A stretch of DNA of 64,000 nucleotides from a virus: positions 21,246 through 85,245 of IMG/VR virus record IMGVR_UViG_3300030107_004732; one strand, written 5' to 3'. Made by a program: the position numbers and the translations under genes. The notes under the pieces are model-generated. The model made no database searches and was not told the DNA's origin. It saw only the letters and a program-made list of their open reading frames with translations. The first letter of the stretch is position 1; the number at the start of each line of letters is the position of its first letter. This document shows positions 3,533 through 61,277 of this stretch, in pieces.

Positions 3533-3565
3533 AATAAACAGAGCCCCGTCAAGGGGCGGTAGGAA

Positions 3566-3742
3566 TCAAGCTTTAGCATAATCCTTACCTATTTTTATTA
3601 GTTGCATATCTTCTACAGTTAACTTATATACATTATCTTGAGTTATATCTATAATATCATCATCTTCTATTACTTCTTCCTGTATCCATTCTACAGTATC
3701 ACTATCTTCATCATATTTAATAGTTAGTATGTACTTTTTCAT
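3566..3742 (-). CDS. Small acidic hypothetical protein (58 aa; not in ORF track)
   Basis: Manual translation MKKYILTIKYDEDSDTVEWIQEEV...; positional and sequence counterpart of 54771..54986. Confidence 0.6.
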   Translation of the reverse strand: MKKYILTIKYDEDSDTVEWIQEEVIEDDDIIDITQDNVYKLTVEDMQLIKIGKDYAKA

Positions 3743-3747
3743 ATTGA

Positions 3748-3776
3748 AATTTATTAAATGGATTATTTAAAAGCAA
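3748..3776 (-). promoter_or_regulatory. Sigma70-like promoter TTGCTT-N17-TAAATT
   Basis: 17-nt spacer; closely similar element at 33513..33541. Confidence 0.6.
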
Positions 3777-3799
3777 CAATTATTTTAAAACGACTTTTG

Positions 3800-3819
3800 A
3801 AAATTGTGCAATTTTAGTG
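3800..3819. repeat. Junction motif AAAATTGTnnnATTTTAGTG, copy 1
   Basis: 17/20 identical to 55427..55446; same position between divergent arms. Confidence 0.6.
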
Positions 3820-3923
3820 CTTGGCTATATTACGCACCCCCGCCCCCCTTCGGGGGATTTCCAAATTTACTTTTTAGTTATTTTTGATTTATATTATTTC
3901 GTTAACTAACAAAAGGAGATCCG

Positions 3924-4292
3924 ATGGACGAGATCAAGAAAAAGATACTCGCAATTATCTTGCGAGGTATGGAAGCGCAGACTAACTGCGGTATCCAAGC
4001 TATGCAAATGCAAGCGATTAAAGGTAGAATGCCTAACTGGCAAGCACAACAGTTCATGACTAATAACAACCAAGCGTTGTTAGGGTTTGGAACGATGGCT
4101 CCCAACATATTAAATGGGACATTGCCTGCACAGCAAGGTAATCCTGAGTTGACTCAGCTTGTTGAGTTACTCAAGTCGTCAGACAAGGGGTCTAGCAAGA
4201 CAGATAAGAAGCTAGGTTACCTATCTAATGACATTAAGAACCTTACCGCAAGTGTTAAAGCATTAGTTGATTCACAACAACCTAAGCCGTAA
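3924..4292 (+). CDS. First early gene, Gln/Met-rich hypothetical protein
   Basis: 122 aa, AAAGGAG RBS, followed by a terminator. Confidence 0.75.
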   Translation: MDEIKKKILAIILRGMEAQTNCGIQAMQMQAIKGRMPNWQAQQFMTNNNQALLGFGTMAPNILNGTLPAQQGNPELTQLVELLKSSDKGSSKTDKKLGYLSNDIKNLTASVKALVDSQQPKP

Positions 4293-4313
4293 GCTTAACA
4301 GTTAACAGTAATT

Positions 4314-4333
4314 GGGGTCTTCGGGCCCCTTTT
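4314..4333 (+). terminator. Intrinsic terminator
   Basis: GGGGTC-TTCG-GGCCCC followed by TTTT. Confidence 0.7.
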
Positions 4334-4546
4334 ACCTATTTTATTACTAAAATAACTTAATATTTATACAAATACAGGCAAATATAGTGATATATGGTAT
4401 GATATAGACATACAGCAATATAGCCTGCTACAATGTATGCGTGTGTGTATGATATATATATAAACTTATACCACACATATAACAAGTATTTTGTTTTCTC
4501 CTAACCTATTAACGCCTAGTGTAAAAGCTAGGCAGAAAGGCATATC

Positions 4547-5044
4547 GTGATAGATATTAGCAATAAAGTCATTGGTACTTCATTAGGCCAATGCATTAGG
4601 GATATATTAGTTGGACATGTCAAGTTCACTGATGTAATAATGATATATTGTGGTACAAACATACAATCTCAAAGAGACCTTAATAAAGTAATTGATAGGT
4701 ATTCTAGAGATGTATGGGCTTTTCACAATGAAGAAGTAATTAGACAAGTGATAGATTATTTTCTATTTAGAGGTTTAATACAACAGGAAAGAGTTGGTAA
4801 TAACATTTATTATGGTTCTTATCCTAATCATACTAAACTTTGGTATAAACTATCAGACTTTGATGTTAAAATTCAAAAAGCGTTTACTGTAGTATTTAGC
4901 GCTAATTTGGATAATTCTGATAAAGGTGATATACCTGACGCTGATAAAAGACGCAATTCTTCAGTTAAAGAAGAGTTGGATGATTTAATATTAGCTAACG
5001 CAAAAATTTATGATGCTAAAAGAAGGAGGTGTTTAAATGATTAA
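4547..5044 (+). CDS. Hypothetical phage protein
   Basis: 165-aa ORF, co-oriented, overlaps next start. Confidence 0.65.
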   Translation: MIDISNKVIGTSLGQCIRDILVGHVKFTDVIMIYCGTNIQSQRDLNKVIDRYSRDVWAFHNEEVIRQVIDYFLFRGLIQQERVGNNIYYGSYPNHTKLWYKLSDFDVKIQKAFTVVFSANLDNSDKGDIPDADKRRNSSVKEELDDLILANAKIYDAKRRRCLND

Positions 5045-5411
5045 TATGATACCTATAAGAGATGATCATAAGAAAGTATTAGTGAGTGCTAAAGATATAA
5101 AAACTATCTTCACTTTTGAAAGAGAGCCACGTTCAGAGACATTAGAGCAAAGACTTGCTGCTAAAAGAAATAATGAACAAGTATATTGTATTAATATAAA
5201 ATATGATAGTTATTTTGAAGAAAATGGGATTGTTCTATCATATAGAAATGAATCAATACGAGATACGGTATTTGAGAGTATTTATAAAACATTAGACTCC
5301 CGATCTAATATAGTTGATAATAGTTCAACAAAGGCAATTGAGCCTGTGATGCGTAAAGATCCTAAGTTTACATTTTATGATGTATGTGTAGGAGGTGCTT
5401 TATATGAATGA
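5037..5411 (+). CDS. Hypothetical protein
   Basis: 124 aa, AGGAGG RBS. Confidence 0.65.
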   Translation: MINMIPIRDDHKKVLVSAKDIKTIFTFEREPRSETLEQRLAAKRNNEQVYCINIKYDSYFEENGIVLSYRNESIRDTVFESIYKTLDSRSNIVDNSSTKAIEPVMRKDPKFTFYDVCVGGALYE

Positions 5412-5619
5412 TATTTATACAGCAACATTATTGTTCCCAGATGGTCATTTAGAGGTCTGGGAGCATATTGTTTATAATTATGCAGATGCTAGAACAGTGC
5501 ATCTTTATTTAGAACTGTTTCGTCTTAATGGTGTGAAAATAGTAGATCAAACAAATGATAAACTACTATATATACCTAAAATAGTATCATCATATCAATT
5601 AAGGGGGATGTTACAATGA
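5395..5619 (+). CDS. Hypothetical protein
   Basis: Co-oriented ORF; true start probably the ATG at 5404 after GGAGG. Confidence 0.55.
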   Translation: MLYMNDIYTATLLFPDGHLEVWEHIVYNYADARTVHLYLELFRLNGVKIVDQTNDKLLYIPKIVSSYQLRGMLQ

Positions 5620-6179
5620 TAAGACTATTATTATTATTAAGTGTGTGTTATGGATATGTTAATCTTGACCTATTTGTAACACATGCTGCTAAACAGACTC
5701 ATAGTTTTGTACAATATGATGGGTCTTATTATGATATTGATTACCCAATGGGTGACATATCAAGAGATAAAGGTGTGTGTACTGATGTAATAATCAGAGC
5801 ATATCGTGATTGTTGTGGAGTAGATCTACAAGAGTTAGTGTACGTAGATATGATAAATAATAATCATTTATATGATACACCTTATGAGGTTGATAATAAT
5901 ATTGACCACAGAAGAGTAAAGAACTTAAGAGTATTCTTTGAGCATAACGGATATGTTAAGCCAAATGATGATGAGTTCTATCCAGGTGATATAATTACTT
6001 GGAACCTACGCAAAAGAGGTAGTTTACCTCATATAGGAATATTATCTCATTTATATAGTATAGATGGACATCCACTGGTTATCCACAATTCTGGTGGTGG
6101 TGTAGTTATTCAAGACATATTGTTTAAATATGATATAACTGGCCATTATGTATATCGTGGAGAAGGGAGAATAAGATAA
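5616..6179 (+). CDS. DUF1287 (YijF-like) protein, NlpC/P60-related, with signal-like N-terminus
   Basis: YPMGDISRDKGVCTDVIIRAYR, IDHRRVKNL, PGDIITW, PHIGI motifs. Confidence 0.85.
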   Translation: MIRLLLLLSVCYGYVNLDLFVTHAAKQTHSFVQYDGSYYDIDYPMGDISRDKGVCTDVIIRAYRDCCGVDLQELVYVDMINNNHLYDTPYEVDNNIDHRRVKNLRVFFEHNGYVKPNDDEFYPGDIITWNLRKRGSLPHIGILSHLYSIDGHPLVIHNSGGGVVIQDILFKYDITGHYVYRGEGRIR

Positions 6180-6180
6180 T

Positions 6181-6432
6181 ATGTTTAATCCTAACCAATT
6201 AAAGCTAGATACTACCATATTACAGTCTAGAACTGTTGGTAATCTAGTAGAAATATTAAGAGAAGGCTTAAAGTCTAATGATCCATTGATATTAAAAAAA
6301 ATGGTAAAGTATATACTTAAAGAAAGAGATAAATCTTTACATATGTACAGCACTAGATCAAAAGGTGGCCATAGAAAAACTACTGTTAATAAAAAAATAG
6401 AAACAATACAAAGGAGTAAAGATGATAATTAA
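6181..6432 (+). CDS. Hypothetical basic protein
   Basis: 83-aa ORF after GGAG. Confidence 0.55.
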   Translation: MFNPNQLKLDTTILQSRTVGNLVEILREGLKSNDPLILKKMVKYILKERDKSLHMYSTRSKGGHRKTTVNKKIETIQRSKDDN

Positions 6433-6896
6433 TATGATAAAATTATGTGCTTATACTTTAGCGATTGGCTTAACATTTGTTGGGGCATTTGCTATATTAT
6501 TCAATGTATTTATTAACATATAGGAGAAACTATGGATGAGGAACATGAGGCTTTTGAAGCAGCATTAGAAGATATGGGCTTAAATGATGCAATAGTATTT
6601 ATATTAGCCGATGAATATTATAATTTGTAACTAAAACAGGCTTTCTTTGTTGAGGACAATAGTAATGATACTAAGCAAATAAACAAAGGAGGTGTTATGA
6701 ATTATATTCGTGATAGTAGTAGTGTGGGATAACACTCATGCTACTGCTTGATCAAAAAATTATTAAACTTATCCTATACCAATGTTAACTTGCCCTTGGC
6801 TCATACCCAAGAAGGCGAGAGTCCTGAGATAACAACAGGTAAGGTATAGGAGCGCATTGCACGCATTGCAATACAACAATGAATAATGAAATAAAA

Positions 6897-7304
6897 TTGA
6901 GAGTTATGAAACAGGCCTGATCACCTGTGGATTAACGATGTGAAACCTGTAGAGCATTCTGGTGAGGAGTGTGCAGGTAGACTGTTAGGTGTGACCGCTA
7001 TAATATCAAGTGATGTTGTAGAACTAGTAGAGGCTAGAACAGTCGTAGAGCCAATATAAATGATAAGGGAATCCTTATCCAGTGGGTGTATATGTCTAGA
7101 GATAGACACTGAATACGGTAAGCAGGTCTTACATGAAAACAGATACACTATTTAGTCTATGGATTAACTACCCATATGTGACGACCTATCGGGGTAACCA
7201 GCCCTCATGGAGATAGGAGTAGCATACTTGATCACTCTTGTAGACGAAACACTGCCAATTAAAAATGGTATCTTGCGGGTGTCCCAAATCCCGCCACAAC
7301 TCAA
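6897..7304 (+). ncRNA. Candidate large structured ncRNA
   Basis: No + strand ORF, GC higher than flanks, closing GAGTT/AACTC pairing, several hairpins (ACAGG/CCTGT, GCGGG/CCCGC). Confidence 0.5.
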
Positions 7305-7334
7305 ATACTTTTAACCTACTAATCAAGGAGAATT

Positions 7335-7787
7335 ATGAATAAATTTACATGTGATATATGTGGAGACACATCTTATGGTCATTCACATAATACTCAACCA
7401 TTATTAAATGGACAATGTTGTGCACTATGTAATATGATATTTGTTACAGCATCTAGAATTACTGGTGTTGATTCATTAGATGAACAAATAGAATATATGA
7501 TGAAAATGAAAGATGAAGATGAACTACCTGATATGTTCTTAGAAGTTTTAGATAGAGTTCGTGACTATCAAGGTAAAATATTTCTAGAAGAAACAGCCAA
7601 AATATCTATAGAAGATCTAAACGCTAAATTAGATGAATTGGAAGAAGAGAAAGAAATAGAAAAGTTAAATATGTCAAAAGAAGAGATAATATATAACTTA
7701 AAAAAAGCATTTGACAATGCAATTAAAATAGAAGCTTATGAAGCTGCTGCATTTATTAAGAAAAGAATTGAGTCTCTAAAGAGTTGA
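7335..7787 (+). CDS. Zn-finger protein with C-terminal UVR-like motif
   Basis: CDIC...CCALC; C-terminus AIKIEAYEAAAFIKKRIESL. Confidence 0.65.
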   Translation: MNKFTCDICGDTSYGHSHNTQPLLNGQCCALCNMIFVTASRITGVDSLDEQIEYMMKMKDEDELPDMFLEVLDRVRDYQGKIFLEETAKISIEDLNAKLDELEEEKEIEKLNMSKEEIIYNLKKAFDNAIKIEAYEAAAFIKKRIESLKS

Positions 7788-7987
7788 TTGGTAGGAGAAC
7801 AACTGATCTGTAGTTGGCTTGACAAGTGCCCTATACTAAACTGCAGATATAGCACCCATCATCGATAGGAATACCTAAGGCAAATTGCACTGCATGAGCT
7901 GTTGGTGGGTGCTGAGATTTGTATATCATTTACTATAAATATAATGAAAATAAGAAAAAACATAGAAAAAATATGGAGGATATTAAA

Positions 7988-8488
7988 ATGGGCTTTGATT
8001 TAAGTGGTGTTAATCCACAAATAAATAAACCTGAATCTGAATATAAATACTTTAAAGAAGATAGTGAATTATGGATGTCAGACGACAAAAAAGAACGTGA
8101 AAAATACTTTAAAGAAATGGATGATTACCATGAAAATAATCCAGGAGTATATTTTCGCAATAATGTTTGGTGGTGGAGACCATTATGGTCTTATGTTATC
8201 AATTTATGTGACGATATACTTACAGATGATGATATGGAACATGGATCATATAATAATGGACATGAAATATCTCAAGAAAAAGCATATAAAATAGGTTTAA
8301 GACTATTAAAAGACATAGATTCAGGTAAAACTGCTGTTTATGAAGAATTACACACAAAAAATAATGCAGAATTAAGTCAATCTAGCGATAAAGATGCGGC
8401 ATTTATGTCTAATTATCCATTTGATGTAGATAATGTAAGAAATTTTGCTAATTTCTGCTTACAATCAGGAGGTTTTACAATATGTTAA
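7988..8488 (+). CDS. Conserved phage protein (YFRNNVWWWRPLW type), copy A
   Basis: Paralog of 60418..60930; GGAGG RBS before ATG 7988. Confidence 0.8.
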   Translation: MGFDLSGVNPQINKPESEYKYFKEDSELWMSDDKKEREKYFKEMDDYHENNPGVYFRNNVWWWRPLWSYVINLCDDILTDDDMEHGSYNNGHEISQEKAYKIGLRLLKDIDSGKTAVYEELHTKNNAELSQSSDKDAAFMSNYPFDVDNVRNFANFCLQSGGFTIC

Positions 8489-8798
8489 CATTTTACCCAG
8501 TAAAAACTGAAGAAGAACTAATAACTGAGCTTCATCATGTAAGAAATGATATTGCTTTATTAAAAATAAGGCAAAATAAGATAATTGATGAACTTGTAAC
8601 ATTAAAAGGAGATAAAGATGCCAAAAACTAAGAAAACTAGAGATCCAATAGATGAAATTGATAATATATTAAAAACTATAGATAAATTAGAAGGTAATAT
8701 GGATATTTTAAACACAAATATGCAACATGCTATTGATTTACAGGAAGAAATAGGAAGAGATTTAGACAAGATTAAAAAAAGGATGGGATTATGATAAA

Positions 8799-9074
8799 TT
8801 GGATGAATCTTTGTGTATATGGTGGAATATTTCTACTTGGAATGATAATGTGGTATTATATAGTGAAATGGTGGTTCTAATGGATATATTTGAACTAGAA
8901 AAAAACAATGTAGTACTTAAAAGAACTGTAAGATACCTTGATGGTGAAATAAAAGAAATAGTAGAAAAACAAATATTAAGTAACCTAACCAAGATTGATA
9001 ATTTCTTTGATGATTTAGAAAGAGAATATCAGTCTATTAACTCTTATGAAGAAGGAGGCCAAAATGGCAACTAA
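8799..9074 (+). CDS. Hypothetical protein
   Basis: ORF overlapping the Ubl start; start codon uncertain. Confidence 0.5.
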   Translation: MDESLCIWWNISTWNDNVVLYSEMVVLMDIFELEKNNVVLKRTVRYLDGEIKEIVEKQILSNLTKIDNFFDDLEREYQSINSYEEGGQNGN

Positions 9075-9282
9075 AACAATAAAATTTCTACAAGGTGGCG
9101 GCTTTGTAGAAAGACAAACTAACGCTGATACTGTTGAGCAATTAAGAAATGAATTTCCAGATGATATTAGTAATAATGCATCTGTTGCTGTTAATGGTGT
9201 TTCTGTAACTAACACTCATGCTATTGCTGAAGGTGATATTGTTGCAGCTGTTAATAATAATAAGTCTGGCGGTGATCAGTAA
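9064..9282 (+). CDS. Ubiquitin-like (ThiS/MoaD beta-grasp) protein, 72 aa
   Basis: AGGAGG RBS; TVEQL...VAVNG...IAEGDIV pattern; C-terminus KSGG-DQ. Confidence 0.85.
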   Translation: MATKTIKFLQGGGFVERQTNADTVEQLRNEFPDDISNNASVAVNGVSVTNTHAIAEGDIVAAVNNNKSGGDQ

Positions 9283-9363
9283 TTATTAACTTAAGGTGGT
9301 CGCTGGTCTCGAGACTAAAAGATAGATAGGCACTATTTAAAGCGCTATCTCCACCTTATAACT

Positions 9364-9448
9364 TATAGGGCTGTAGTGACAGGCGAGTCAATAACTGTAG
9401 CCAGCAATTGGCGTTATGTGAGACTAACGAGGGTCAATCAGCCCTATA
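9364..9448 (+). ncRNA. Structured leader RNA with AATAACTG/TATGTGA internal loop
   Basis: Outer stem TATAGGGCTG/CAGCCCTATA; loop core shared with the elements at 13792 and 62519. Confidence 0.55.
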
Positions 9449-9465
9449 TTAAACTTGGAGGGTTT

Positions 9466-10833
9466 ATGACAGATTATAGAGATTATGATTGCATTGTAGA
9501 TGGCTCAATAGAACAATGCTTAGAAGAAATAGAAGTAGGAGATCTTGAAGAACACATTTATTATGGTCCTCAAGCAGACATAATGGAGAAATTACAAAGA
9601 TTTAATGCTAGACACAGAGCCGATTTAGAAATTACTAAAACATTTAAATGGAAACGTGGTTCTTATGAAAGAGTTGCTGAACTTATGATGAGAGGTCTTG
9701 GATTTAGAAGAAGGCCAAGTGGTATGTATAATTATTTACATAGAGAAGATTGGTTTAGAACTCATACCTGGGATTCAATTAAAAGCCAATTACAAGATAT
9801 GGATTCTGACTTGTACAGGTTAAGAAATAATGGTGAAGTATGGTTAGATGATCCTTCTGTTCTTGTAGAAAGAAAAAATTTGTATTCTAATTATTTGATA
9901 GAAAAAGTAGAACTTGCTGATGAAATAATAGAAAATGTAGATATAATGGCTGAAATGTATCATCAGTTATTTGTTCATCCAACATCACGCTCAAGTAGAA
10001 GATATATGCTAGTAACAACACTACGTATTACTCCAGATGTAATGAAAGTTTATGTAACTGAAGGTAGAAATAGTAATGAACCTGCTAAACATATAGAAAA
10101 TATAGCTTGTGATACAGATGTATACTTAAATCTTATTACATATCCATTGCAAGTTATGACAAGACATTCTAATTATGATAGGCCTTCAATTGATGTAAGT
10201 ATTCTTGGTCAAGTTGAACAACCAAGCGATAAAGGATATTTATCATTTCCTTATATTTCTGGTAGCAGAAACTACAGAGGCGGTTATTTTGGAAATAGTG
10301 TTTGCTTTGGTGACCAATCAACAGATGTGCATAATTCATTATATAGATATGATTTACCATCTTTTGTATTGCAATGTATACCTTGGGCTACATCATATAC
10401 TAATATGACACAACCACATAGCAACATTAAAATGATGTATCATGGTGAACCTAGCAGATTATCTGATGAATACAGATCAATATTTGGTACAAATACATCT
10501 AATATGTGTACTTACATACCAGATGGTGATAATGATTATTGTGATGTAAATGAATGTGCTCTTAGACATAGTTGTACATTATATAAAGATGCACATCCTC
10601 AACCAGTAACACCAGAACAAGCTGAACAAATGACCTTACAATGGGCTACTAGAATGGGTGGCGTTAATCACGCTGCTCCAACTATAATACACACAACTGA
10701 TAATTCAGGCAATCCTGTAACTGTAACTAGAGATAGAACGTCAATGGAACAAGCTGCAGATGCTCAAGAACCACCAATACAAGGTGATCGTGAACAGTGG
10801 CCTGATGAATCACCACAAGGTGACGAAATGTAA
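9466..10833 (+). CDS. Putative prokaryotic E2-like conjugating protein with Cys-rich tail
   Basis: GGAGG RBS at 9457; FPYISG...GNSVCFGD resembles the E2 active-site segment; lies between Ubl and JAB. Confidence 0.55.
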   Translation: MTDYRDYDCIVDGSIEQCLEEIEVGDLEEHIYYGPQADIMEKLQRFNARHRADLEITKTFKWKRGSYERVAELMMRGLGFRRRPSGMYNYLHREDWFRTHTWDSIKSQLQDMDSDLYRLRNNGEVWLDDPSVLVERKNLYSNYLIEKVELADEIIENVDIMAEMYHQLFVHPTSRSSRRYMLVTTLRITPDVMKVYVTEGRNSNEPAKHIENIACDTDVYLNLITYPLQVMTRHSNYDRPSIDVSILGQVEQPSDKGYLSFPYISGSRNYRGGYFGNSVCFGDQSTDVHNSLYRYDLPSFVLQCIPWATSYTNMTQPHSNIKMMYHGEPSRLSDEYRSIFGTNTSNMCTYIPDGDNDYCDVNECALRHSCTLYKDAHPQPVTPEQAEQMTLQWATRMGGVNHAAPTIIHTTDNSGNPVTVTRDRTSMEQAADAQEPPIQGDREQWPDESPQGDEM

Positions 10834-10849
10834 CTTAAAAGGAGGAATA

Positions 10850-10993
10850 ATGGACGCTAGAACTTCATACTTTAGTAATGAAATTAAAGACTTACAGTTT
10901 AAGTTTAAATCATTGCGTAATGATCATGAAACACTTAAAAAAGAATATAAAATACTACAAAAACAAGTAAAAAAGCTCGAGGAGGGTAAATAA
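10850..10993 (+). CDS. Small coiled-coil protein
   Basis: AGGAGG RBS; heptad pattern; coupled to the JAB start. Confidence 0.6.
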   Translation: MDARTSYFSNEIKDLQFKFKSLRNDHETLKKEYKILQKQVKKLEEGK

Positions 10994-11964
10994 TGGAAAT
11001 ATTAATACATAAAGAATCTTGGGATAAGATTATAAATTATGCTAAAGCTGCTTATGTCACAGAAAAAGCTGAAATAGGTGGTATGGCTGTAGTAACACAA
11101 GATAAAGATGGTGACTGGACTATTGAAAATCCAGTTATATTACCACAAGAAATAGCAGGGACTACGTGTGACCTAGATAAAGAAGAATTGGCTACGTATT
11201 ATACTCAAATGGCTATGAAATACAAAGACCAGAAGTTTAGATTTTGTTGGTGGCACAGTCATCACACAATGAACGCATTCTGGAGTGGTACAGATTTATC
11301 TAGCATTGATGAGTATGGTGAAGGTGAATCAGACGTTTCATTTGCACTTGTTGTTAATCTAAAAGAAGAATACAAATGTAGAATATCTGTATGGAAACCA
11401 GTAGAAATACATCAAGATGTAGAAGTTAAAATATTAGATGATACACCTGAAATAGAAATACCACTTGATATAGTTACAGAAGTTAAAGCTAAATGTAGAA
11501 AACGTACTTATGTAAGTTCTTATAAATCTGGTGGATCTGTATTAGAATCGCCAAATAAAAAGCAGTTAGTAATTGGTCAAAATGGATTTGAAAGTAGTTA
11601 TAATTGGGCTAAATATAGTTGGCTTGATGATGATTTAGAAAAAATTGTTACACCACAAGAACAAACTAACTTTGAAGCTAAATGGGAATATGCGACTAAT
11701 AAAATAACAGAGTTTATTAGACAATTTAATACAGGAGCTTGGAATATGCACAAATATAAATCTGCTGTAACTCATACAAATAAAATATTAGAACCATATG
11801 GGATTCAAATAGAAACATTAAACAAGCGTGAGTTAACAGAGTTTATTGAAATGGATTCTGAACCATATGAACTGTTAACAGCTGATGATAAATATCATGA
11901 TATAGCAGAAAGTTTAATAGATTGCGCATCTTATAATCAATCTTATGGAGGGTATGGAATATGA
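10993..11964 (+). CDS. JAB/MPN+ (JAMM) metalloprotease
   Basis: N-terminal EIGG Glu plus WWHSHHTMNAFWSGTD (HxH-x7-S-x2-D). Confidence 0.9.
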   Translation: MEILIHKESWDKIINYAKAAYVTEKAEIGGMAVVTQDKDGDWTIENPVILPQEIAGTTCDLDKEELATYYTQMAMKYKDQKFRFCWWHSHHTMNAFWSGTDLSSIDEYGEGESDVSFALVVNLKEEYKCRISVWKPVEIHQDVEVKILDDTPEIEIPLDIVTEVKAKCRKRTYVSSYKSGGSVLESPNKKQLVIGQNGFESSYNWAKYSWLDDDLEKIVTPQEQTNFEAKWEYATNKITEFIRQFNTGAWNMHKYKSAVTHTNKILEPYGIQIETLNKRELTEFIEMDSEPYELLTADDKYHDIAESLIDCASYNQSYGGYGI

Positions 11965-12614
11965 TAAATACTAGAAGCCAAGATATTGCAGATATATCAG
12001 GCATTAAGTTTCACATTGTAGGTTGCGGGGCTATTGGAAGCTCCGTAGCCACACAATTAGTAAGACTTGGTGGCAATAATTTTGTTTTATATGATTTTGA
12101 TAAAGTTGAAATACCTAATGTAGGTGTAAGTCAATATAATGAACAAGATGTAGGGCTATCTAAAGTAGGTGCTCTAACAAATCATATGAAAAAAATTAAT
12201 GTAATGATTGAAATAGAGGGAATTGTTGATAAATTTAAATATTATCATGGAAATAAAGATGATATATTAGTATTAGGTTTAGATAGTATGTCTGCTCGTA
12301 TGGAAATAGTTAAATTGTTAGCAAAATGCCCTTATAAACCATCATTTGTAATAGATGGTCGTATGGGTGCAGAACAATATCAACAGTATATATATGATAA
12401 TATTACTGTTAAACAATATGAAAAAGATTGGTATTCTGATGAAGATTCTGATCCAGAACCATGCACTCGTAAAGCTACATCTTACTGTAGTAATATGAGT
12501 GGAAGTTTTATATCTAATTCTATTAAGAACATAGTTATGAAACAGCCTTACTTTAAGGAAATAATTTTCAACTTTTCAACATTAATACTTGATAAAAAGA
12601 AATTAGTTTCTTAA
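11961..12614 (+). CDS. E1-like ThiF/MoeB family adenylyltransferase
   Basis: GCGAIGS, YDFDKVEIPN, SKV, DGRMG; candidate catalytic Cys in EPCTRK. Confidence 0.92.
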   Translation: MINTRSQDIADISGIKFHIVGCGAIGSSVATQLVRLGGNNFVLYDFDKVEIPNVGVSQYNEQDVGLSKVGALTNHMKKINVMIEIEGIVDKFKYYHGNKDDILVLGLDSMSARMEIVKLLAKCPYKPSFVIDGRMGAEQYQQYIYDNITVKQYEKDWYSDEDSDPEPCTRKATSYCSNMSGSFISNSIKNIVMKQPYFKEIIFNFSTLILDKKKLVS

Positions 12615-12617
12615 ATT
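12589..12617 (+). promoter_or_regulatory. Sigma70-like promoter TTGATA-N17-TAAATT
   Basis: Upstream of ERF; equivalent element at 61278..61306. Confidence 0.6.
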
Positions 12618-12717
12618 CTAAACCCTTTATATCAAAGGGATCTTATGTATAGCACACTGAACAGGGTAGTATAACCCCTATTTCTGCCCTGTTCTCAAAA
12701 TAAAAAGGAGGAAGCTC

Positions 12718-13221
12718 GTGACAAATATCGATGTTTCAAAACAAACTGGTATTGCTAAAAGTGTATTAGAAGCAAAAGCCAAAAACGAATCAAATGAGAA
12801 ATCTTTTGATGAATCTCATGATAGAAGACATGATGAATGGAAATCACCTCAATTAGATCAATTAGCAGCAGCATTAGCTAAAGCTCAATCTGAAATGGAA
12901 GGTGCTAAAAAAGAGAGTACAAATCCATTCTTTAAGTCTAGTTATGCAGACTTACATGCAGTAATTAAATCTTCATTTCCATACTTATCTAAAAATGGAC
13001 TATCTGTTAGTCAAGGTAATGAAGTAATTAAAGGCGCTGTATGTGTAACAACAACATTAATGCACGCATCAGGTCAATGGATGAGAAGTAAAATTAAACT
13101 TCCATTAGCTAAAGTAGACGCACAAGGCGTTGGAGCTGCTGTAACTTATGGTAGAAGATATGGTTTATCTGCTATGGTAGGTATAGCTCAATACGATGAT
13201 GATGCACAATCAATTTCTTAA
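12718..13221 (+). CDS. ERF-family ssDNA annealing protein, copy A
   Basis: NPFFKSSYADL and QGVGAAVTYGRRYGLSAMVGI. Confidence 0.9.
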   Translation: MTNIDVSKQTGIAKSVLEAKAKNESNEKSFDESHDRRHDEWKSPQLDQLAAALAKAQSEMEGAKKESTNPFFKSSYADLHAVIKSSFPYLSKNGLSVSQGNEVIKGAVCVTTTLMHASGQWMRSKIKLPLAKVDAQGVGAAVTYGRRYGLSAMVGIAQYDDDAQSIS

Positions 13222-13234
13222 TTAAGGAGAACAT

Positions 13235-13771
13235 ATGAGAACAATGACAATAAAGTCAGGTAGTAGTAATAATCAATATTCTACTGGGTGGCATGAATTA
13301 ATAGTTTCAAAAGCTAAATATGGTGATTGGAATGGAACAAAATGTATAGACATTTACTTTGATGAATATCCAGAAAACTTTAACATGAGAGTTTATGCTA
13401 AAACAGGAACTGATGGTGAAGAATTTGCTATTGGTCAAATATATAGATTTGCTAATGCTGGAATAAGTAGCGCATTAGAAGGCCCTGATGGCACTAAAGT
13501 TGTTAAAATGGATGATAGTGAAGAAGCTTTAATAGGTAAAAAGATGAATGTTTACTTTTATAAAGATGGTAAATATTCTAGAATGTTATCTAAAACTGCT
13601 CCTACAGAATTTACAAATGCTGTAGAATCATTCACAACAGATGATGTTAGCTATTGGAAAGGTAAAGCTATAGATTTCTATAAGAAATATGTAGAACCTA
13701 AACTTAAAACAAGCTCAGAAGAATCCGTTTCTTCTTCCGAGACCTCCGAGAGTGACGATATACCCTTTTAA
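13235..13771 (+). CDS. Putative single-stranded DNA-binding protein, copy A
   Basis: Acidic tail ending DDIPF; follows ERF. Confidence 0.65.
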   Translation: MRTMTIKSGSSNNQYSTGWHELIVSKAKYGDWNGTKCIDIYFDEYPENFNMRVYAKTGTDGEEFAIGQIYRFANAGISSALEGPDGTKVVKMDDSEEALIGKKMNVYFYKDGKYSRMLSKTAPTEFTNAVESFTTDDVSYWKGKAIDFYKKYVEPKLKTSSEESVSSSETSESDDIPF

Positions 13772-13791
13772 GTGAGTAGGTAATCGTTAAT

Positions 13792-13875
13792 TATAGGGAG
13801 GCAACAACTGGTCCTGTAAGTCGTAAATGACCTACTGAGGAAATTTCCGCAAAGGAATATGTGAGTCTCCCTATA
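13792..13875 (+). ncRNA. Conserved structured RNA element, copy A
   Basis: 11-bp closing stem; cores AACAACTGGTCCTGTAAGTC and GCAAAGGAATATGTGA conserved at 62519..62600. Confidence 0.7.
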
Positions 13876-14319
13876 TAAAGATTTGGTAACAGTATAAAAA
13901 CTCCCTAGATAGTACTCAGTTTACTATCTGACATTTCAGAAATCTAAATTCCATTAGATTCCGATTATTTGTTTATGAGTATATTTCATACGTGACTATT
14001 GCCTGGCTGGAAGTTGCAGGAGTTACCAAAAAATTAAAGGAGAATTATGAGAGCGACAGAATTTATGCATTTTATGAATAGAACAGATATAGGTTTAGGA
14101 CAAAATCCTAAAGAAAGAGACTATACACACTATACCCCTAGAATGCTTGCAAAAAGAGCTAGATATGAGTATCAAAAGATGCTTAGAGAACAAAAAAAAT
14201 TAAAGAAATCGGAGGAAAAAAAATGATAGAAATAATACTTATAAGTTTATCAATATTTATATTAGCTGTAGGAACTTTAATACTGTTAATAAAAAGTGAA
14301 GTGGAGAATATACATGGAG

Positions 14320-16077
14320 ATGATTAAAGAAATAGCATTTGGAGTTAGTAATAGAGGTAATTTTCAATCTAAAGATGAAGTTTGTGAGTTACAAGGCACT
14401 GACACTGATCTATTTGTGTCTTTATATGACTATGATGAAACAGTTGTAGCATATTATAGTAAAAAAGGAAGTTTATCAGGATTTGATGGTAACATATATA
14501 TGCCTACAGAATTTATATTAGACGTTGATGGATCTAGTATAAGAAATGCTAGAGATAAATTAATAGGTTTATCAGATATATTAGATGATTGCAATCTATA
14601 CTATAGAATATATTTTAGCGGAACAGGTTTTCATGTTGGTATACACAATTCAGCATTTAAATGGGAACCAAGTCCTAATTTACACGTAAGAGTAAAAGAA
14701 GAGCTAACTAAAGCTGGTATCTATAAATTTGCAGACCCCTCTGTTACTGATAAAACAAGAATAATAAGACTAGTTAATACTAAAAATACTAAATCTGGAT
14801 TATATAAAATCTGTATAGAAGATAACTTACAAATATTATCTTCGTCAGATAAAGTGTTTAAAGAAGAGCTGATTAAATTAGCATCAGAACCTAGAAACAT
14901 AGATTACGAAGATATTGAATTGAGTAGCCCAGTATTTGATGTAAGAGATAAAGAAAAACCTGAAGAAAAACCTGAAATTAAGGTAAGAAATAAGCGTGAT
15001 CCTGTTGCTAACACTTGTATACAGAAAATGTTAGATGGTGCTCCACACGGTAAACGTCATATGGTCGCTCTTAGAATAGCATCTCATTTAAGATGGAACT
15101 TTCCAGAAAATATTGTAAGATTAATTATGGAAGATTGGCGCATTAGAGTTAACGAAGGTGCTAAAAGCGAGTTTAAAAAAGAAGAGATGGATGGTATAGT
15201 AGAAGGTTGTTATACTGGTCATGATGGACAAGGTTACAGATATGGTGCTGATGATCCAGTTATACAGTTTTATTGTAACTCTAAATGTACGTTACACAGA
15301 GGTGCTAAAGCCGAAAACATGATGGATTCAAGTAGTATGGAAGATGAATTAATAAACTTTTATGCTCAAGACTTAAAACCACTTAATTTAGGTGAGCCAT
15401 ATGATATGAATTTCCCTATATATCCAGGTGAAACAGTCATTATTCAAGCTCCACCTGCAAGTATGAAGACTATGTTGCTTCAAAATTGGGTAAATTATTT
15501 TAAAAGACCAACATACTTTGTTGAAATGGAAATGTCTCCAAGGCAAATATGGTCTAGATTTGTTCAGATAGAAATGGGGTGGGATGAAAATCAATTAGCT
15601 AATCATTACAAACAAATGAAAAATGGTATGGATAAAAGATTTGAATGGTTAACTGTAGACTATTCAGCTCCATATGCGCATGAATTAGAAAGAAGAATCA
15701 CCAGCCTACCTGTTAAGCCAGAAATAGTAATTGTTGACCATTTGGGGCTATTTAAGAGCAAACAGAAAGATAATAACATGAAAGTTGAGGAAGCTAGCCA
15801 AGCAATTATGGAATTAGCTGTAAGACAAAATGTGATCGTCTTTGCTGTAAGCGAAGTATCTAAAGCTGCCTTTAAAGAAGGTATGGACATATCTTCATCT
15901 AGAGGTTCATTTAGAATTGCATATAATGCAAATAAATTAATATCTTTAAAGCCATATAAGAACAAAGAAACAGGTCTTGTTGAGCTTATAGATATTAAAT
16001 CAGATAAAAACAGAGAGAAAGAACATCTGTACGCTAGATTAACAGTTAATAACGTAAGAATAGAAAAGGAGGGCTAA
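14320..16077 (+). CDS. Primase-helicase (AEP primase-polymerase plus RecA/DnaB-like domain), copy A
   Basis: ILDVD, FSGTGFH, TDKTRIIR; CIQKML..G.RH region; variant P-loop APPASMKT; IVDHL Walker B. Confidence 0.85.
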   Translation: MIKEIAFGVSNRGNFQSKDEVCELQGTDTDLFVSLYDYDETVVAYYSKKGSLSGFDGNIYMPTEFILDVDGSSIRNARDKLIGLSDILDDCNLYYRIYFSGTGFHVGIHNSAFKWEPSPNLHVRVKEELTKAGIYKFADPSVTDKTRIIRLVNTKNTKSGLYKICIEDNLQILSSSDKVFKEELIKLASEPRNIDYEDIELSSPVFDVRDKEKPEEKPEIKVRNKRDPVANTCIQKMLDGAPHGKRHMVALRIASHLRWNFPENIVRLIMEDWRIRVNEGAKSEFKKEEMDGIVEGCYTGHDGQGYRYGADDPVIQFYCNSKCTLHRGAKAENMMDSSSMEDELINFYAQDLKPLNLGEPYDMNFPIYPGETVIIQAPPASMKTMLLQNWVNYFKRPTYFVEMEMSPRQIWSRFVQIEMGWDENQLANHYKQMKNGMDKRFEWLTVDYSAPYAHELERRITSLPVKPEIVIVDHLGLFKSKQKDNNMKVEEASQAIMELAVRQNVIVFAVSEVSKAAFKEGMDISSSRGSFRIAYNANKLISLKPYKNKETGLVELIDIKSDKNREKEHLYARLTVNNVRIEKEG

Positions 16078-16224
16078 ATGCCTAAGAAAAGTAAAGAAAA
16101 ACTAAAATGGGAACATGCTGAAAAATTAGCTAACCTATATGAGCAAAGATCTAATTTGGAAGTAGCTTTTATAAAATTAAACGGAGCTATTGAAGTATTG
16201 GAATCAATAAAACCTAAGGAGTAA
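16078..16224 (+). CDS. Small hypothetical protein (48 aa; not in ORF track)
   Basis: GGAGG RBS; IKLNGAIE resembles IKVEGAIE in 61338..61520. Confidence 0.6.
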   Translation: MPKKSKEKLKWEHAEKLANLYEQRSNLEVAFIKLNGAIEVLESIKPKE

Positions 16225-16226
16225 TT

Positions 16227-16511
16227 ATGTATTACAACACTAATGATGAAACAGGGGGAACTCTGCAAAATAGTAGGAATGCTGCAATAAAACAAGAGGA
16301 TCAAATTCTTGGTATATTTCGAGCATTTCCAAATGAAGGTCTTACACCATTTGATATTGAAGATTTTGCAAATGATCAAGATGTTCATTGGCCTATAACA
16401 AGCATTAGAAGAGCTATTACAGATTTAACTAATGCTGGTAAATTAACTAAAACCGATATAACTAAACTAGGTAAGTACGGAAAGAAAGTACATACTTGGA
16501 AATTAGTATAA
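16227..16511 (+). CDS. Winged-HTH DNA-binding protein
   Basis: GLTPFDIE...ITSIRRAITDLTNAGKL. Confidence 0.65.
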   Translation: MYYNTNDETGGTLQNSRNAAIKQEDQILGIFRAFPNEGLTPFDIEDFANDQDVHWPITSIRRAITDLTNAGKLTKTDITKLGKYGKKVHTWKLV

Positions 16512-16527
16512 CACTCAGGAGGGAAGC

Positions 16528-16722
16528 ATGTCAAAAAATAAAAAACCTACAATGAATGAAGTAAGAGATGCAATAGCTGTAATGATTAGAAGAATTGATG
16601 ATTTATATAAAGTTATGCATCAAAGTAATTTAACCTTTACTGAATATTTAATGTTCAAAAAAGAAGGAGATAAATTTACTGAACATTTAAAGGAAAAATA
16701 CGATAAAAAGGAGGATGAATAA
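16528..16722 (+). CDS. Hypothetical protein
   Basis: 64 aa with GGAGG RBS. Confidence 0.6.
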   Translation: MSKNKKPTMNEVRDAIAVMIRRIDDLYKVMHQSNLTFTEYLMFKKEGDKFTEHLKEKYDKKEDE

Positions 16723-16934
16723 TGAGTTGGTTTTGTGATACTCAAGAAGCAAAAGATCATAAGAAAAATTGCAAGAAAAATCCTTGGAATTGTGGCAAAT
16801 GTGTTTGGATAGATGAATCAGCTATCGCTATGGGAAGATATGGTAAAGTTGTAGAATCTGAACCAGAAGCAGAAGAACTTCATCCTTTATTTGAACAGAT
16901 AATGGAGACTTTTAATGGCAGAAAAATTGACTAA
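16722..16934 (+). CDS. Small Cys/His-rich protein, copy A
   Basis: N-terminal 44 aa nearly identical to 59545..59760. Confidence 0.8.
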   Translation: MSWFCDTQEAKDHKKNCKKNPWNCGKCVWIDESAIAMGRYGKVVESEPEAEELHPLFEQIMETFNGRKID

Positions 16935-17150
16935 AAAACAATTAAAAGCAATTAAAAAACATAGGAAAGATAATCCTAAAGAAACAAGTCATGCTCGTAG
17001 AGCTAGATTATTAAAAAATAAACCTTGGTGGATGCCTCGTGACTAATTGCAATAAATGTAAATCAAAGTGCTTCCCTGTGTATAGTTTATCTATAGTTAA
17101 CGAAATATACGTATGCAGGGATTGCGCTTTTAAAATAATGGAAGGATATT

Positions 17151-17459
17151 ATGATAGAAGACCTATTAAAACTGAAAAGTCAGATTGATAGCATGGTAGA
17201 AACATATAAAGATCTACATCCAGATGAGTTTTATGACTTAATGGATAATGGTGAATATATTACTAAAGAAGAGTATGAAACTCATGACAGAGGTAATAAT
17301 ACACATCTAGACGGTATGAGTGAGTATAATCAAAAACAACAGGCACTTAAAAAAATAAGGGAGGGGACTTATGAAAGCACGTTCCGCGAAAAACAAGGGA
17401 AGAAAACTGCAGAACATGGTGAGGGATCGCCTTCGCTCTGTGTTTTCGGAGACTCTTGA
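17151..17459 (+). CDS. Hypothetical acidic protein
   Basis: 102 aa; 3' end overlaps the resolvase gene. Confidence 0.55.
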   Translation: MIEDLLKLKSQIDSMVETYKDLHPDEFYDLMDNGEYITKEEYETHDRGNNTHLDGMSEYNQKQQALKKIREGTYESTFREKQGKKTAEHGEGSPSLCVFGDS

Positions 17460-17724
17460 GACGAATGATATTGAATCCCAAGTTATGGGAATGAGTGGTG
17501 AGGATATTGTATTATCCCCAGCAGCTAAAAGAGCTATAAAATACAGTTTTGAATGTAAAAATCAAGAAAGATTAAACTTGTGGAAATCTTTAGAACAAGC
17601 AGAATCTAACTGTGATAATAGACATCCTGTACTAGTATTCAAAAGAAATAGAACAAAAACATATGTAGCTATAGAGTTTGATCACTTTATAGAATTAATC
17701 GATGAAAAACAAAAGGAGATTTAA
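17371..17724 (+). CDS. PD-(D/E)xK nuclease / Holliday junction resolvase-like
   Basis: SAKNKGRKLQ, GEDI, FECKNQE motifs. Confidence 0.8.
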   Translation: MKARSAKNKGRKLQNMVRDRLRSVFSETLETNDIESQVMGMSGEDIVLSPAAKRAIKYSFECKNQERLNLWKSLEQAESNCDNRHPVLVFKRNRTKTYVAIEFDHFIELIDEKQKEI

Positions 17725-17888
17725 TGGAATTAAATCACATAGATAAAACAAATTTAGAATGGATTGAACAATATTTAGAAAACACATCTTATTCTGAAAT
17801 ACCTGAATCATTTATCAATCAAGTTGACCAATGGTTTGAAACTGTTAGTTACATTAAAAGTTTAGTAGAATTAAAAAAACAAAGCTAG
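17724..17888 (+). CDS. Last early-arm gene, hypothetical (54 aa; not in ORF track)
   Basis: AGGAG RBS; ends 3 bp before the convergent stop at 17892. Confidence 0.55.
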   Translation: MELNHIDKTNLEWIEQYLENTSYSEIPESFINQVDQWFETVSYIKSLVELKKQS

Positions 17889-61270: not shown

Positions 61271-61277
61271 TATTTTC

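What the first reader, a model, noticed from the sequence alone, without database searches (positions are those of the whole stretch)
9064..12614. Phage-encoded ubiquitin-like conjugation cassette (Ubl, E2-like, coiled-coil, JAB, E1)
Seen: five co-oriented genes encoding a beta-grasp protein with C-terminal GG, a 455-aa protein with an E2-like Cys motif, a small coiled-coil, a JAMM protease (HSH-x7-S-x2-D) and a ThiF/E1 (GCGAIGS, free Cys). No sulfur-transfer or thiamine/molybdopterin genes are nearby. Known: Ubl+E1+E2+JAB sets define bacterial ubiquitination-like systems such as the Bil antiphage system and PRTRC cassettes; CBASS Cap2/Cap3 use related enzymes. Inference: here the virus carries the machinery in its early arm, possibly to tag host or phage proteins or to counter host Ubl-based defence. 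The matching interval of the sister arm (60930-61513) lacks it, so it is an accessory module.
Basis: partly seen in the sequence, partly recalled or inferred. Interest (0 to 1): 0.92.

Follow-up and report, generated by a model that had tools for sequence, protein, structure and literature searches.

The report
Phage-owned ubiquitin-like tagging gene cassette
An uncultured ocean phage carries, next to its DNA-replication genes, a small ubiquitin-like protein made as a precursor, a trimming protease, an activating enzyme and a large unclassified cysteine protein, which together look like a virus-run version of the protein-tagging kits so far studied in bacteria as anti-phage defences.

Summary
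The five genes exist as described. The E1 is firm: ThiF 4.7e-19, UBA5 1.9e-14. The JAB has a complete JAMM motif, invariant in 13 of 13 sequences. The 72-aa ThiS-like Ubl always ends GG plus an extension: DQ, K or 8 residues.

Ubl, X, JAB and E1 keep this order in every related phage contig that reaches the genes, and in two distant lineages where X is about 20% identical. All four genes are under purifying selection. Parts occur in marine RNA libraries.

The weak point is the "E2". The 455-aa protein X belongs to a large unnamed viral family with one lone invariant Cys after an [H/F]-P-[Y/F]-[I/V]-S motif. No HMM, profile or Foldseek search links it to any E2, even with a pLDDT 91 model. Only a language-model lead points to Prok-E2_D.

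The coiled-coil gene is optional. Distant JAB-E1 pairs sit in crAss-like and Flavobacterium phages.

It is not a member of Bil, Bub, CBASS, PRTRC or ThiS/ThiF. This scan noted similar phage cassettes on other DNA before. No paper found describes one.

The parts
9064..9282 (+). Ubl precursor, 72 aa, ThiS/MoaD-like, ending NNNKSGG-DQ
   Evidence: ORF; RBS. ThiS 9.2e-4, matched by 9 of 11 homologues. The C-terminus is invariant in 11 of 11 close homologues. Distant lineages end GGG-K and TGG plus 8 aa. It has the lowest dN of the cassette.
9283..9465 (+). 183-nt spacer between Ubl and X with inverted repeats
   Evidence: Sequence read. Not analysed here. Another first-reader note (e1-6113772) proposes an RNA motif here.
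9466..10833 (+). Protein X, 455 aa: helical N-domain, alpha/beta central domain with lone invariant Cys280, four-Cys cluster (C348, C359, C364, C370), disordered acidic tail. Candidate Ubl-transfer (E2/E3-like) component.
   Evidence: Family of 385 representatives. Column counts. Models. No known family or fold. Atlas lead to Prok-E2_D.
10850..10993 (+). Optional 47-aa coiled-coil ORF
   Evidence: Found in 4 of 19 related contigs.
10993..11964 (+). JAB/JAMM metallopeptidase (residues 1-145) plus a 175-aa C-terminal region of unknown fold
   Evidence: Motif invariant in 13 of 13. Weak alignment to an Rpn11-like protein, E 0.42.
11961..12614 (+). Minimal E1-like adenylation enzyme, 217 aa, invariant Cys168
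12623..12639 (+). Weak terminator-like hairpin after E1
   Evidence: Consensus scan only; the number of such sites is no higher than in shuffles.

Best explanation
This is a phage-encoded ubiquitin-like modifier pathway, carried at the head of the replication/recombination block of 53-57 kb uncultured marine phages.

Proposed course, all chemistry inferred:
1. The Ubl is made as a precursor. The JAMM peptidase removes the short extension (DQ here) and exposes Gly-Gly.
2. The minimal E1 adenylates that C-terminus. It may then hold the Ubl on invariant Cys168.
3. The Ubl passes to the lone invariant Cys280 of protein X. X acts as a combined transfer and specificity factor, an E2/E3 analogue of a fold not yet in the PDB.
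4. X attaches the Ubl to target proteins, most plausibly at the replication fork or among host factors.
5. The JAB can also reverse the mark.

Shown here: the genes, their motifs, strict co-occurrence and order across distant lineages, purifying selection, and presence in RNA libraries.

Inferred: every chemical step, the role of X and the targets.
For: E1 is a bona fide E1-superfamily domain. It matches ThiF at 4.7e-19. Its profile matches UBA5 at 1.9e-14, MccB, UBA6, UBA3, MoeB at 6e-10, ThiF at 1e-8, Cap2 at 1.5e-8 and BubCD at 1.7e-6. R5, G21, G23, D45, D47, K68, D108 and C168 are invariant, including in the crAss001 and FpV4 homologues.

The JAB has a full JAMM motif in 13 of 13 sequences.

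The Ubl is ThiS-like. Its GG is always followed by an extension of 1, 2 or 8 residues, which ties it to the peptidase.

The order Ubl-X-JAB-E1 is kept in 12 of 12 X-anchored loci as far as each contig reaches. It is also kept in two distant lineages: L016-L018, where X is 22% identical to the window's, and L049-L051. This is the same component order as BilA-B-C-D as listed in PMC11601596 section 5.

Across 75 diverse members X has one lone invariant Cys, preceded by [H/F]-P-[Y/F]-[I/V]-S. This is reminiscent of the HPN...Cys signature of E2s, which I recall rather than tested.

The DSSP order of the model is a long helix, a beta meander, a loop with the Cys, then helices.

In the Atlas, the three best named clusters for residues 125-345 all carry Prok-E2_D (score 0.89, 171-175 shared features).

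X evolves fastest of the four genes (dN/dS up to 0.56) and the Ubl slowest, as expected for a specificity factor and a shared tag.

No sulfur-acceptor genes were found.

RNA-library contigs from two studies match parts of Ubl, JAB and E1 with 0 mismatches, and one lower-identity piece (20 other letters in 541) lies on X.
Against: X matches no E2 model:
- Pfam scans of 75 members at E up to 10 gave no UBC or Prok-E2 family.
- The PF14460 HMM found nothing in the window's own record, in 5 related records, or in 401 genomes.
- hhalign against a Cap2 E2 region gave probability 0.3%.
- A profile search with the domain found 37 proteins, none with a Pfam domain.
- Foldseek against the PDB gave no hit at E <= 1e-3. 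No E2 appears in the 50 rows printed for a pLDDT 91.4 model, and TMq is 0.20 or less.

An Atlas score of 0.89 is by the tool's own statement only a lead.

The E1 has no Cys domain or UFD. The Arg of UBA5's N-M-N-R aligns with V56.

Ubl and JAB family matches are below Pfam's cut-offs.

RNA-library contigs do not prove transcription.

No conjugate has been observed.
Confidence: 0.55

Rival explanations
1. The Ubl pathway is real, but X is not the transfer enzyme. The E1 acts without an E2, as recalled for archaeal SAMP/UbaA and Urm1/Uba4. X would then be the regulated target, a replication factor, or itself a C-terminally activated substrate in the manner of the CD-NTase in type II CBASS.
For: No E2 homology or fold was found for X. 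X carries a conserved C-terminal helix...QWATRMGG in this clade. 14 of 75 family members have W-A-x(2-5)-G-G near the end. 9 of 75 end in P-F like SSB tails, against 0.09 expected, which points to the replisome. The cassette always abuts ERF or Sak4-like, SSB-like and primase genes.
Against: The GG after the helix is present in only 14 of 75 members, so it is not a general processing site. The lone invariant Cys, the conserved motif before it and the fixed position between Ubl and JAB fit a catalytic partner better than a passive target.
Confidence: 0.2
2. It is a sulfur-carrier system. The Ubl is trimmed by the JAB, adenylated and thiocarboxylated. This follows the recalled examples of QbsE/QbsD/QbsC and CysO/Mec+. 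X would be a new sulfur-using enzyme, for example one that modifies a nucleotide, DNA or a cofactor.
For: The Ubl's only family match is ThiS/MoaD, and one public source names it a molybdopterin converting factor small subunit. The best NCBIfam E1 hits are ThiF models. The E1 has only the adenylation domain, like ThiF/MoeB. X has a Cys and a four-Cys cluster. The cassette lies among DNA-metabolism genes.
Against: The E1 scores far below the ThiF and MoeB cut-offs (70.9 against 159 bits), and its profile ranks UBA5, MccB and UBA6 above MoeB and ThiF. The E1 has no rhodanese domain. No rhodanese, MoaE, ThiG or PP-loop enzyme is in the record. The near-invariance of the whole Ubl surface (92-97% identity while X is 43-77%) suggests many protein partners.
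Confidence: 0.15
3. The main role is counter-defence. The phage kit interferes with host Ubl-based immunity (Bil, Bub or type II CBASS), for instance by deconjugating host marks or flooding the host pathway.
For: PADLOC's CBASS E1-E2 and JAB models are the best defence-library matches. The module is accessory and clade-specific. X evolves fast.
Against: A JAB alone would suffice for deconjugation. The cassette sits in the replication block in every lineage seen, and in crAss-like phages too. No host is known, so no host Ubl system can be named. Only one bacterial contig, a 3.9-kb MAG contig, carries relatives.
Confidence: 0.1

Closest known systems
Bil operons (BilA Ubl, BilB E2, BilC JAB, BilD E1), a bacterial anti-phage system. 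Source: PMC11601596 section 5 read; passages of 10.1101/2023.09.04.556158.
   Same: Four separate genes in the same order: tag, second enzyme, JAB, E1. The C-terminal Gly is conserved. Some BilA homologues also carry 2-9 aa overhangs after the Gly.
   Different: This cassette is encoded by a phage, not a host. Its E1 is a 217-aa single adenylation domain, not IAD-AAD-CYS. Its Ubl has one small ThiS-like domain. X is 455 aa with no detectable UBC homology.
Type I Bub (6E.1) operons: BubAB Ubl-E2 fusion, BubCD JAB-E1 fusion, BubE. Source: PMC11601596 abstract and section 5.
   Same: A JAB next to a small E1 that lacks a Cys domain. The Ubl is released by JAB cleavage. BubCD is among the E1 profile's PDB matches at 1.7e-6.
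   Different: The genes here are not fused. No DUF6527 match appeared in the Pfam scans. X and the E1 keep invariant cysteines, whereas Bub works through oxyesters.
Type II CBASS Cap2 (E2-E1) and Cap3 (JAB)
   Same: These are the best defence-library matches for the E1 and the JAB. Cap2 is among the PDB matches.
   Different: There is no CD-NTase and no E2-E1 fusion. A dedicated Ubl is present. hhalign of X against a Cap2 E2 region gave probability 0.3%.
crAss001 gp79-gp76 and Flavobacterium phage FpV4 gp52-gp50, annotated as hypothetical, metalloprotease and 'thiamine biosynthesis protein ThiF'
   Same: An E1 homologue at about 30% identity occurs in 80 phage records. A JAB with the H-S-H...S-G-T-D motif lies directly upstream. 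A protein of about 420-444 aa lies upstream of that, inside the replication genes. Foldseek links the X domain to crAss-like virus proteins at probability 0.97-0.98.
   Different: gp78 and gp52 show no sequence similarity to X by hhalign. The crAss001 E1 has a 160-aa N-terminal extension. A Ubl in gp79 is only suspected by eye.
PRTRC cassettes (ParB-related, ThiF-related) of plasmids and integrative elements
   Same: The same kinds of parts are present: ThiF, JAB-like protein A and a small Ubl (composition recalled). One distant phage lineage has a ParB-like gene just upstream.
   Different: All NCBIfam PRTRC scores are far below their cut-offs, or there is no hit at all.

Membership tests
Bil (BilABCD) | [quoted passage not shown] | tested here: not met
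   The E1 is 217 aa with one adenylation domain. ThiF matches residues 9-119 only.
Bil (BilABCD) | E2 (BilB) of the UBC fold | tested here: inconclusive
   There is no HMM, profile or Foldseek link. The only support is an Atlas lead to Prok-E2_D. The VIA aligners were unavailable.
Bil (BilABCD) | Ubl with a conserved C-terminal Gly, and a JAB peptidase | tested here: met
   GG is conserved in all 11 aligned Ubls. The JAMM motif is present in 13 of 13.
Bub (6E) | Ubl-E2 and JAB-E1 (or E2-E1) fusions plus the DUF6527 protease BubE | tested here: not met
   The genes are separate. No DUF6527 match appeared in the Pfam scans of the five proteins.
Type II CBASS (Cap2/Cap3) | E2-E1 fusion Cap2 with a CD-NTase and an effector | tested here: not met
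   PADLOC E1-E2 models match only their E1 part, model positions 335-411 of 711. No nucleotidyltransferase is in the cassette.
PRTRC | NCBIfam models PRTRC_ThiF and PRTRC_A, B and C above their cut-offs | tested here: not met
   PRTRC_ThiF scores 30.7 against 144.75 bits. PRTRC_A scores 12.9 against 101.8 bits. X and the Ubl have no hit.
ThiS/ThiF and MoaD/MoeB sulfur carriers | E1 above the ThiF or MoeB equivalog cut-offs, with partner enzymes (ThiG, MoaE, rhodanese) | tested here: not met
   NF006395 scores 70.9 against 159 bits, and TIGR02355 scores 27.9 against 376.55 bits. No ThiG, MoaE, rhodanese or PP-loop enzyme is in the record.
E1 superfamily (ThiF fold) | Gly-rich nucleotide loop, Asp for Mg, and a Pfam ThiF score above the cut-off | tested here: met
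   ThiF scores 68.9 bits against a cut-off of 28.1. G21, G23 and D108 are invariant.
JAMM/MPN+ peptidases | E ... H-x-H-x7-S-x2-D | tested here: met
   The motif was read in the sequence and is invariant in 13 of 13. The Pfam scores of 21.5 and 21.0 bits are just below the cut-offs.
UBC/E2 superfamily, including Prok-E2_D (PF14460) | UBC fold with a catalytic Cys, detectable by HMM or by structure | tested here: inconclusive
   There is no HMM hit. Foldseek against the PDB shows no E2 in the 50 rows printed. The invariant Cys, the motif before it and the helix, beta-meander, Cys, helices order are compatible. The Atlas lead scores 0.89.

The most novel reading that the evidence does not exclude
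Tailed phages of several deep lineages own a ubiquitin-like conjugation system. These are the marine 53-57 kb phages here and, more distantly, crAss-like and Flavobacterium phages. Its transfer enzyme (X) has a fold with no solved relative. It is deployed with the replication genes to tag host or phage replisome proteins. On this reading, ubiquitin-type tagging is a weapon on both sides of the phage-host conflict, not only a bacterial defence.
Probability: 0.35. Interest if true: 0.88.

Novelty: new variant of a known kind. Interest (0 to 1): 0.74.

Why it matters
In prokaryotes, ubiquitin-like conjugation has so far been characterised as host machinery: Bil, Bub, CBASS Cap2/Cap3 and archaeal SAMPs. 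A complete phage-owned kit, conserved and under purifying selection, would show that viruses of bacteria also use this chemistry. It would also add an unclassified family of at least 385 sequence clusters as the candidate transfer enzyme.

The idea is directly testable with four small genes. Its distant relatives sit in culturable phages, crAss001 and FpV4, where 'ThiF' and 'metalloprotease' annotations currently hide them.

Tried and rejected
Searches for an E2 link in X that found nothing:
- Sequence searches of X in Pfam, NCBIfam, PHROGs and PADLOC.
- Pfam scans of 75 family members at E <= 0.01 and at E <= 10.
- PDB sequence and profile searches with A1 and A2.
- Foldseek against the PDB with the whole model and with the domain model.
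- hhalign of X profiles against crAss001 gp78, FpV4 gp52 and a Cap2 E2 region.
- The PF14460 HMM on the window's own record, on 5 related records and on 401 genomes of one bacterial class.
- A profile search with the domain: 37 proteins, none with a Pfam domain.

Other searches without result:
- The Ubl profile against PDB gave noise only.
- The Ubl profile against the crAss001 gp79 N-terminal part gave probability 3%.
- No DNA or protein match for the cassette or for X in GenBank phages.
- Bacterial genomes hold no relative of X and one 3.9-kb MAG contig for the E1, so no host could be named.
- Three of five distant X proteins had no relative in IMG/VR.

Rejected idea: that the GG after the C-terminal helix of X is a general cleavage site. 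It is present in only 14 of 75 members.

Literature. Searches found no paper describing a phage-encoded Ubl-E1-JAB cassette. This covers only the open-access library. Supplementary tables were not opened: Table S1 of PMC11601596 and Table S6 of the Bil preprint. They could list phage-borne homologues.

Full report
WHERE IT LIES. The window is bases 21246-85245 of an 85,245-bp IMG/VR virus record. The cassette sits in a + strand block of early and replication genes. Directly downstream come an ERF recombinase (12718-13221, Pfam ERF 5.9e-23), an SSB-like gene ending DDIPF (13235-13771) and a primase/DnaB-like helicase (14296-16077). Samples that hold it are marine, and the proteins are on record from Tara and other ocean data.

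- The Ubl (9064-9282) and X (9466-10833) each have a strong Shine-Dalgarno sequence.
- The JAB and E1 genes overlap by four bases.
- The E1 is solid: ThiF 4.7e-19 (above Pfam's cut-off), PADLOC E1-E2 2.9e-16, phrog_15670 2.7e-17.
- A profile of 13 E1 homologues matches UBA5 at 1.9e-14. MccB, UBA6, TcdA, UBA3, MoeB (6e-10), ThiF (1e-8), Cap2 (1.5e-8) and BubCD (1.7e-6) follow. So it is a generic E1-superfamily adenylation domain, no closer to the sulfur-carrier enzymes than to true E1s.
- R5, G21, G23, D45, D47, K68, D108 and C168 are invariant even in the crAss001 and FpV4 homologues.
- One oddity: the Arg of UBA5's N-M-N-R aligns with V56.
- The JAB scores just under Pfam's cut-offs (21.5 and 21.0 bits) and 4.6e-7 against a PADLOC JAB model. 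It has the whole E...H-S-H-x7-S-x2-D motif, invariant in 13 of 13 sequences.
- The Ubl matches ThiS at 9.2e-4 (below the cut-off), as do 9 of 11 homologues. No solved structure matches by sequence. Both structure-prediction jobs went to X, so the beta-grasp fold is inferred and not modelled.

THE GENES BELONG TOGETHER. All 12 IMG/VR loci found with X carry Ubl-X-JAB-E1 in this order as far as each contig reaches, followed by ERF, the SSB-like gene and the primase.

Of 28 loci anchored on ERF, 22 have E1 directly upstream. These are all the loci whose ERF is at least 72% identical. The other six (ERF 40-67% identical) show no E1 in the upstream sequence held, though L042 holds only 126 bp there.

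The related second phage in the same window also lacks the cassette: g7919 homologue, two small ORFs, then ERF. So the cassette is a clade-specific accessory module.

It recurs in two much more distant lineages.
- L016-L018: X is 601 aa and 22% identical. The Ubl ends GGG-K. A ParB-like gene lies upstream, an HNH insert is present, and a Sak4-like gene stands in place of ERF.
- L049-L051: X is 532 aa. The Ubl ends TGG plus 8 residues.

Three other distant X proteins had no IMG/VR relatives, so they give no information.

Against 9 related loci all four genes are under purifying selection:
- Ubl: dN/dS 0.065-0.19
- X: 0.22-0.56
- JAB: 0.21-0.27
- E1: 0.18-0.285

The Ubl is 88-97% identical where X is 43-77%. 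The window's JAB is nearest to L022, L028, L030 and L035 (84-86%), while its X is nearest to L004-L007 (71-77%). The parts are therefore exchanged between lineages.

The X-JAB junction is an insertion hot spot. It holds the 47-aa coiled-coil ORF in 4 of 19 contigs, an 83-100 aa ORF in three, and a 287-aa ORF in one.

WHAT X IS. X has no match in Pfam, NCBIfam, PHROGs or PADLOC.

Its family is large. 48 clusters were found at 90% identity, none with a Pfam domain or an informative name. Among 1.84 billion representatives, 385 match at E <= 1e-3 and 212 at E <= 1e-10.

Across 75 diverse members the conserved features are as follows:
- Invariant columns: C280, P317 and C364.
- Position 261: His in 46, Phe in 25.
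- P262 in 70; Tyr or Phe at 263 in 75; I264 in 62; S265 in 46.
- N319 in 71; G327 in 73.
- A four-Cys cluster: C348 in 74, C359 in 74, C364 in 75, C370 in 70.

So there is one lone invariant Cys after an [H/F]-P-[Y/F]-[I/V]-S motif, followed by a probable zinc knuckle.

The whole-protein model has pLDDT 75.6 with a disordered acidic tail. Residues 125-345, modelled with 103 sequences, reach pLDDT 91.4 and pTM 0.88. The order of elements is a long helix, a five-strand meander, a short helix, a further strand, a loop bearing the motif and the Cys, then helices. That order resembles the UBC layout, which I recall rather than tested.

The tests did not confirm it. Foldseek against the PDB gave no hit at E <= 1e-3, a best E of 0.14 and TMq of 0.20 or less, with no E2 in the 50 rows printed. 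The slower aligners were not installed. All HMM and profile tests were negative.

Against predicted viral structures, the domain finds its own UniProt entry, five family members (3e-11 to 5e-9) and then uncharacterised proteins of crAss-like and other podoviruses (probability 0.97-0.98, TMq 0.35-0.44).

The ESM Atlas gives the only positive pointer. The three best named clusters for residues 125-345 all carry Prok-E2_D in 39%, 14% and 75% of their members. The score is 0.89 with 171-175 shared features, which the tool itself rates as a lead.

My reading: X is the Cys-dependent partner of the pathway. Whether it descends from E2s is open.

RELATIVES IN CULTURED PHAGES. The E1 has homologues at about 30% identity in 80 GenBank phage records. 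They are mostly crAss-like Bacteroides phages and Flavobacterium phages, and are usually annotated 'thiamine biosynthesis protein'.

In crAss001 the order is gp78 (444 aa, hypothetical), gp77 (JAB motif, blastp 5e-5 against the window's JAB), gp76 (ThiF). In FpV4 it is gp52, gp51, gp50. In both phages the genes lie among replication genes.

gp78 and gp52 are not similar to X by hhalign. By eye, gp78 has H-S-H-V-S, then 15 residues, then P-C-T-G. gp79 has ...K-S-G-A followed by 140 more residues. hhalign does not support the gp79 link, at probability 3%.

BACTERIAL GENOMES. No relative of X was found in one genome from each of 185,579 species. One 3.9-kb contig of a MAG carries the JAB and E1. 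The module is therefore essentially viral.

MECHANISM AND RIVALS. The conserved GG-plus-extension, the adjacent JAMM peptidase and the E1 make precursor trimming followed by C-terminal adenylation the natural reading. Bil and Bub provide the experimental precedents.

I put 0.55 on a conjugation pathway in which X takes the Ubl on Cys280. An E2-independent pathway, with X as target or replisome adaptor, gets 0.2. It is helped by the P-F ends of 9 of 75 X proteins, which resemble SSB tips and are expected 0.09 times by chance.

A sulfur-carrier pathway gets 0.15. The ThiS-like tag and the minimal E1 fit it. However, no rhodanese, MoaE, ThiG or PP-loop gene is in the record, and the E1 scores far below the ThiF and MoeB cut-offs.

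Counter-defence as the main role gets 0.1.

EXPRESSION. Contigs of two marine metatranscriptome runs from two studies lie on parts of the cassette. X4 matches 9084-9354, 11538-11749, 11925-12076 and 12074-12301 with no mismatch. X2 matches 11319-11583 and 11800-12059 with no mismatch. The only piece on X itself, X2 at 9697-10236, has 20 other letters in 541 and may come from a related phage.

In the same three RNA runs the bin 7000-7333 is far deeper (45, 20 and 24), while the DNA run is flat at about 23. This argues that the RNA libraries are not mere DNA carry-over. Contigs cannot prove transcription.

COMPARISON AND NOVELTY. The cassette works like Bil in its parts and their order. It fails Bil's E1 architecture and Bub's fusions. 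It lacks the CD-NTase and E2-E1 fusion of type II CBASS. It falls below the NCBIfam cut-offs for PRTRC and for the sulfur-carrier equivalogs. It is therefore a new variant of a known kind.

Eight literature searches of the open library found no description of a phage-encoded cassette of this type. Iyer et al. 2006, of which I read passages, report only the tail-assembly Ubl/JAB of lambdoid phages. Supplementary tables could not be seen.

This scan has noted comparable phage cassettes on other DNA before: e1-3290011, e1-5357637, e1-3773852, e1-5942128 and others. That is not independent evidence, but it means this window is one more instance of a recurrent theme.

VERDICT. E1, JAB and a precursor Ubl are firm. 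The E2 label for X is a hypothesis. Interest 0.74.

Noticed in passing
whole record; window 1-17800 against 17892-64000; window 34091-34182: The 85-kb record is about 1.6 genome lengths of two related phages (65-80% nt identity) laid end to end. Its first 92 bases are 100% identical to record 55336-55427. Related records rated 99-100% complete are 53-57 kb. It is probably an assembly chimera or concatemer. IMGVR_UViG_3300030451_002683 (104 kb) likewise holds two ERF loci.
   Followed up: partly
window 7000-7333: Three marine RNA-library runs show contig depth of 45, 20 and 24 here, against 0-7 in the neighbouring bins. The DNA run is flat at about 23. This coincides with the gene-free stretch another note calls an ornate non-coding RNA (e1-6128787).
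   Followed up: partly
C-termini of X-family proteins (A2): 9 of 75 X-family proteins end in Pro-Phe, one more in P-L-F and two in E-P-F-L-N(N)-S. About 0.09 P-F ends are expected by chance. The phage's SSB-like proteins end DDIPF, EEVPF, DDLPF and SDVPF. This suggests X docks where SSB tails dock.
   Followed up: partly
window 10620-10690 (X residues 385-399) and 11920-11961 (JAB C-terminus): X has an invariant ...Q-W-A-T-R-M-G-G before its acidic tail. The JAB ends ...Y-G-G plus 3 residues in most relatives. An inserted 94-100 aa ORF in L002 and L012 ends Y-G-G-P-K or Y-G-G-V-K. Several cassette proteins thus carry GG near their ends. The meaning is unknown.
   Followed up: partly
between X and JAB: window 10834-10992; L003 3486-4349; L010 1563-1814; L022, L030, L035: This junction is an insertion hot spot holding different small genes in different phages. 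L016 also has an HNH-like gene between the Ubl and X.
   Followed up: partly
window 9283-9465: A 183-nt spacer with inverted repeats (AAGGTGG ... CCACCTT) lies between the Ubl and X. Another note proposes a recurrent RNA motif here (e1-6113772).
   Followed up: no
L014 2232-2909 (crAss001 gp79): The first 90 or so residues end ...K-K-I-K-S-G-A, resembling the ...N-K-S-G-G tail of the marine Ubl, and are followed by 140 more residues. This may be a fused Ubl precursor. hhalign does not support it, at probability 3%.
   Followed up: partly
L047/L048 (CAYFGZ010000200.1, 3.9 kb): This is the only bacterial-genome hit for the E1 and JAB. It is a short contig of a MAG labelled uncultured Nisaea sp. 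It is likely a phage contig binned with the MAG, so it is not usable as host evidence.
   Followed up: partly
window 5616-6179: The early arm encodes a DUF1287 protein (3.3e-50).
   Followed up: no
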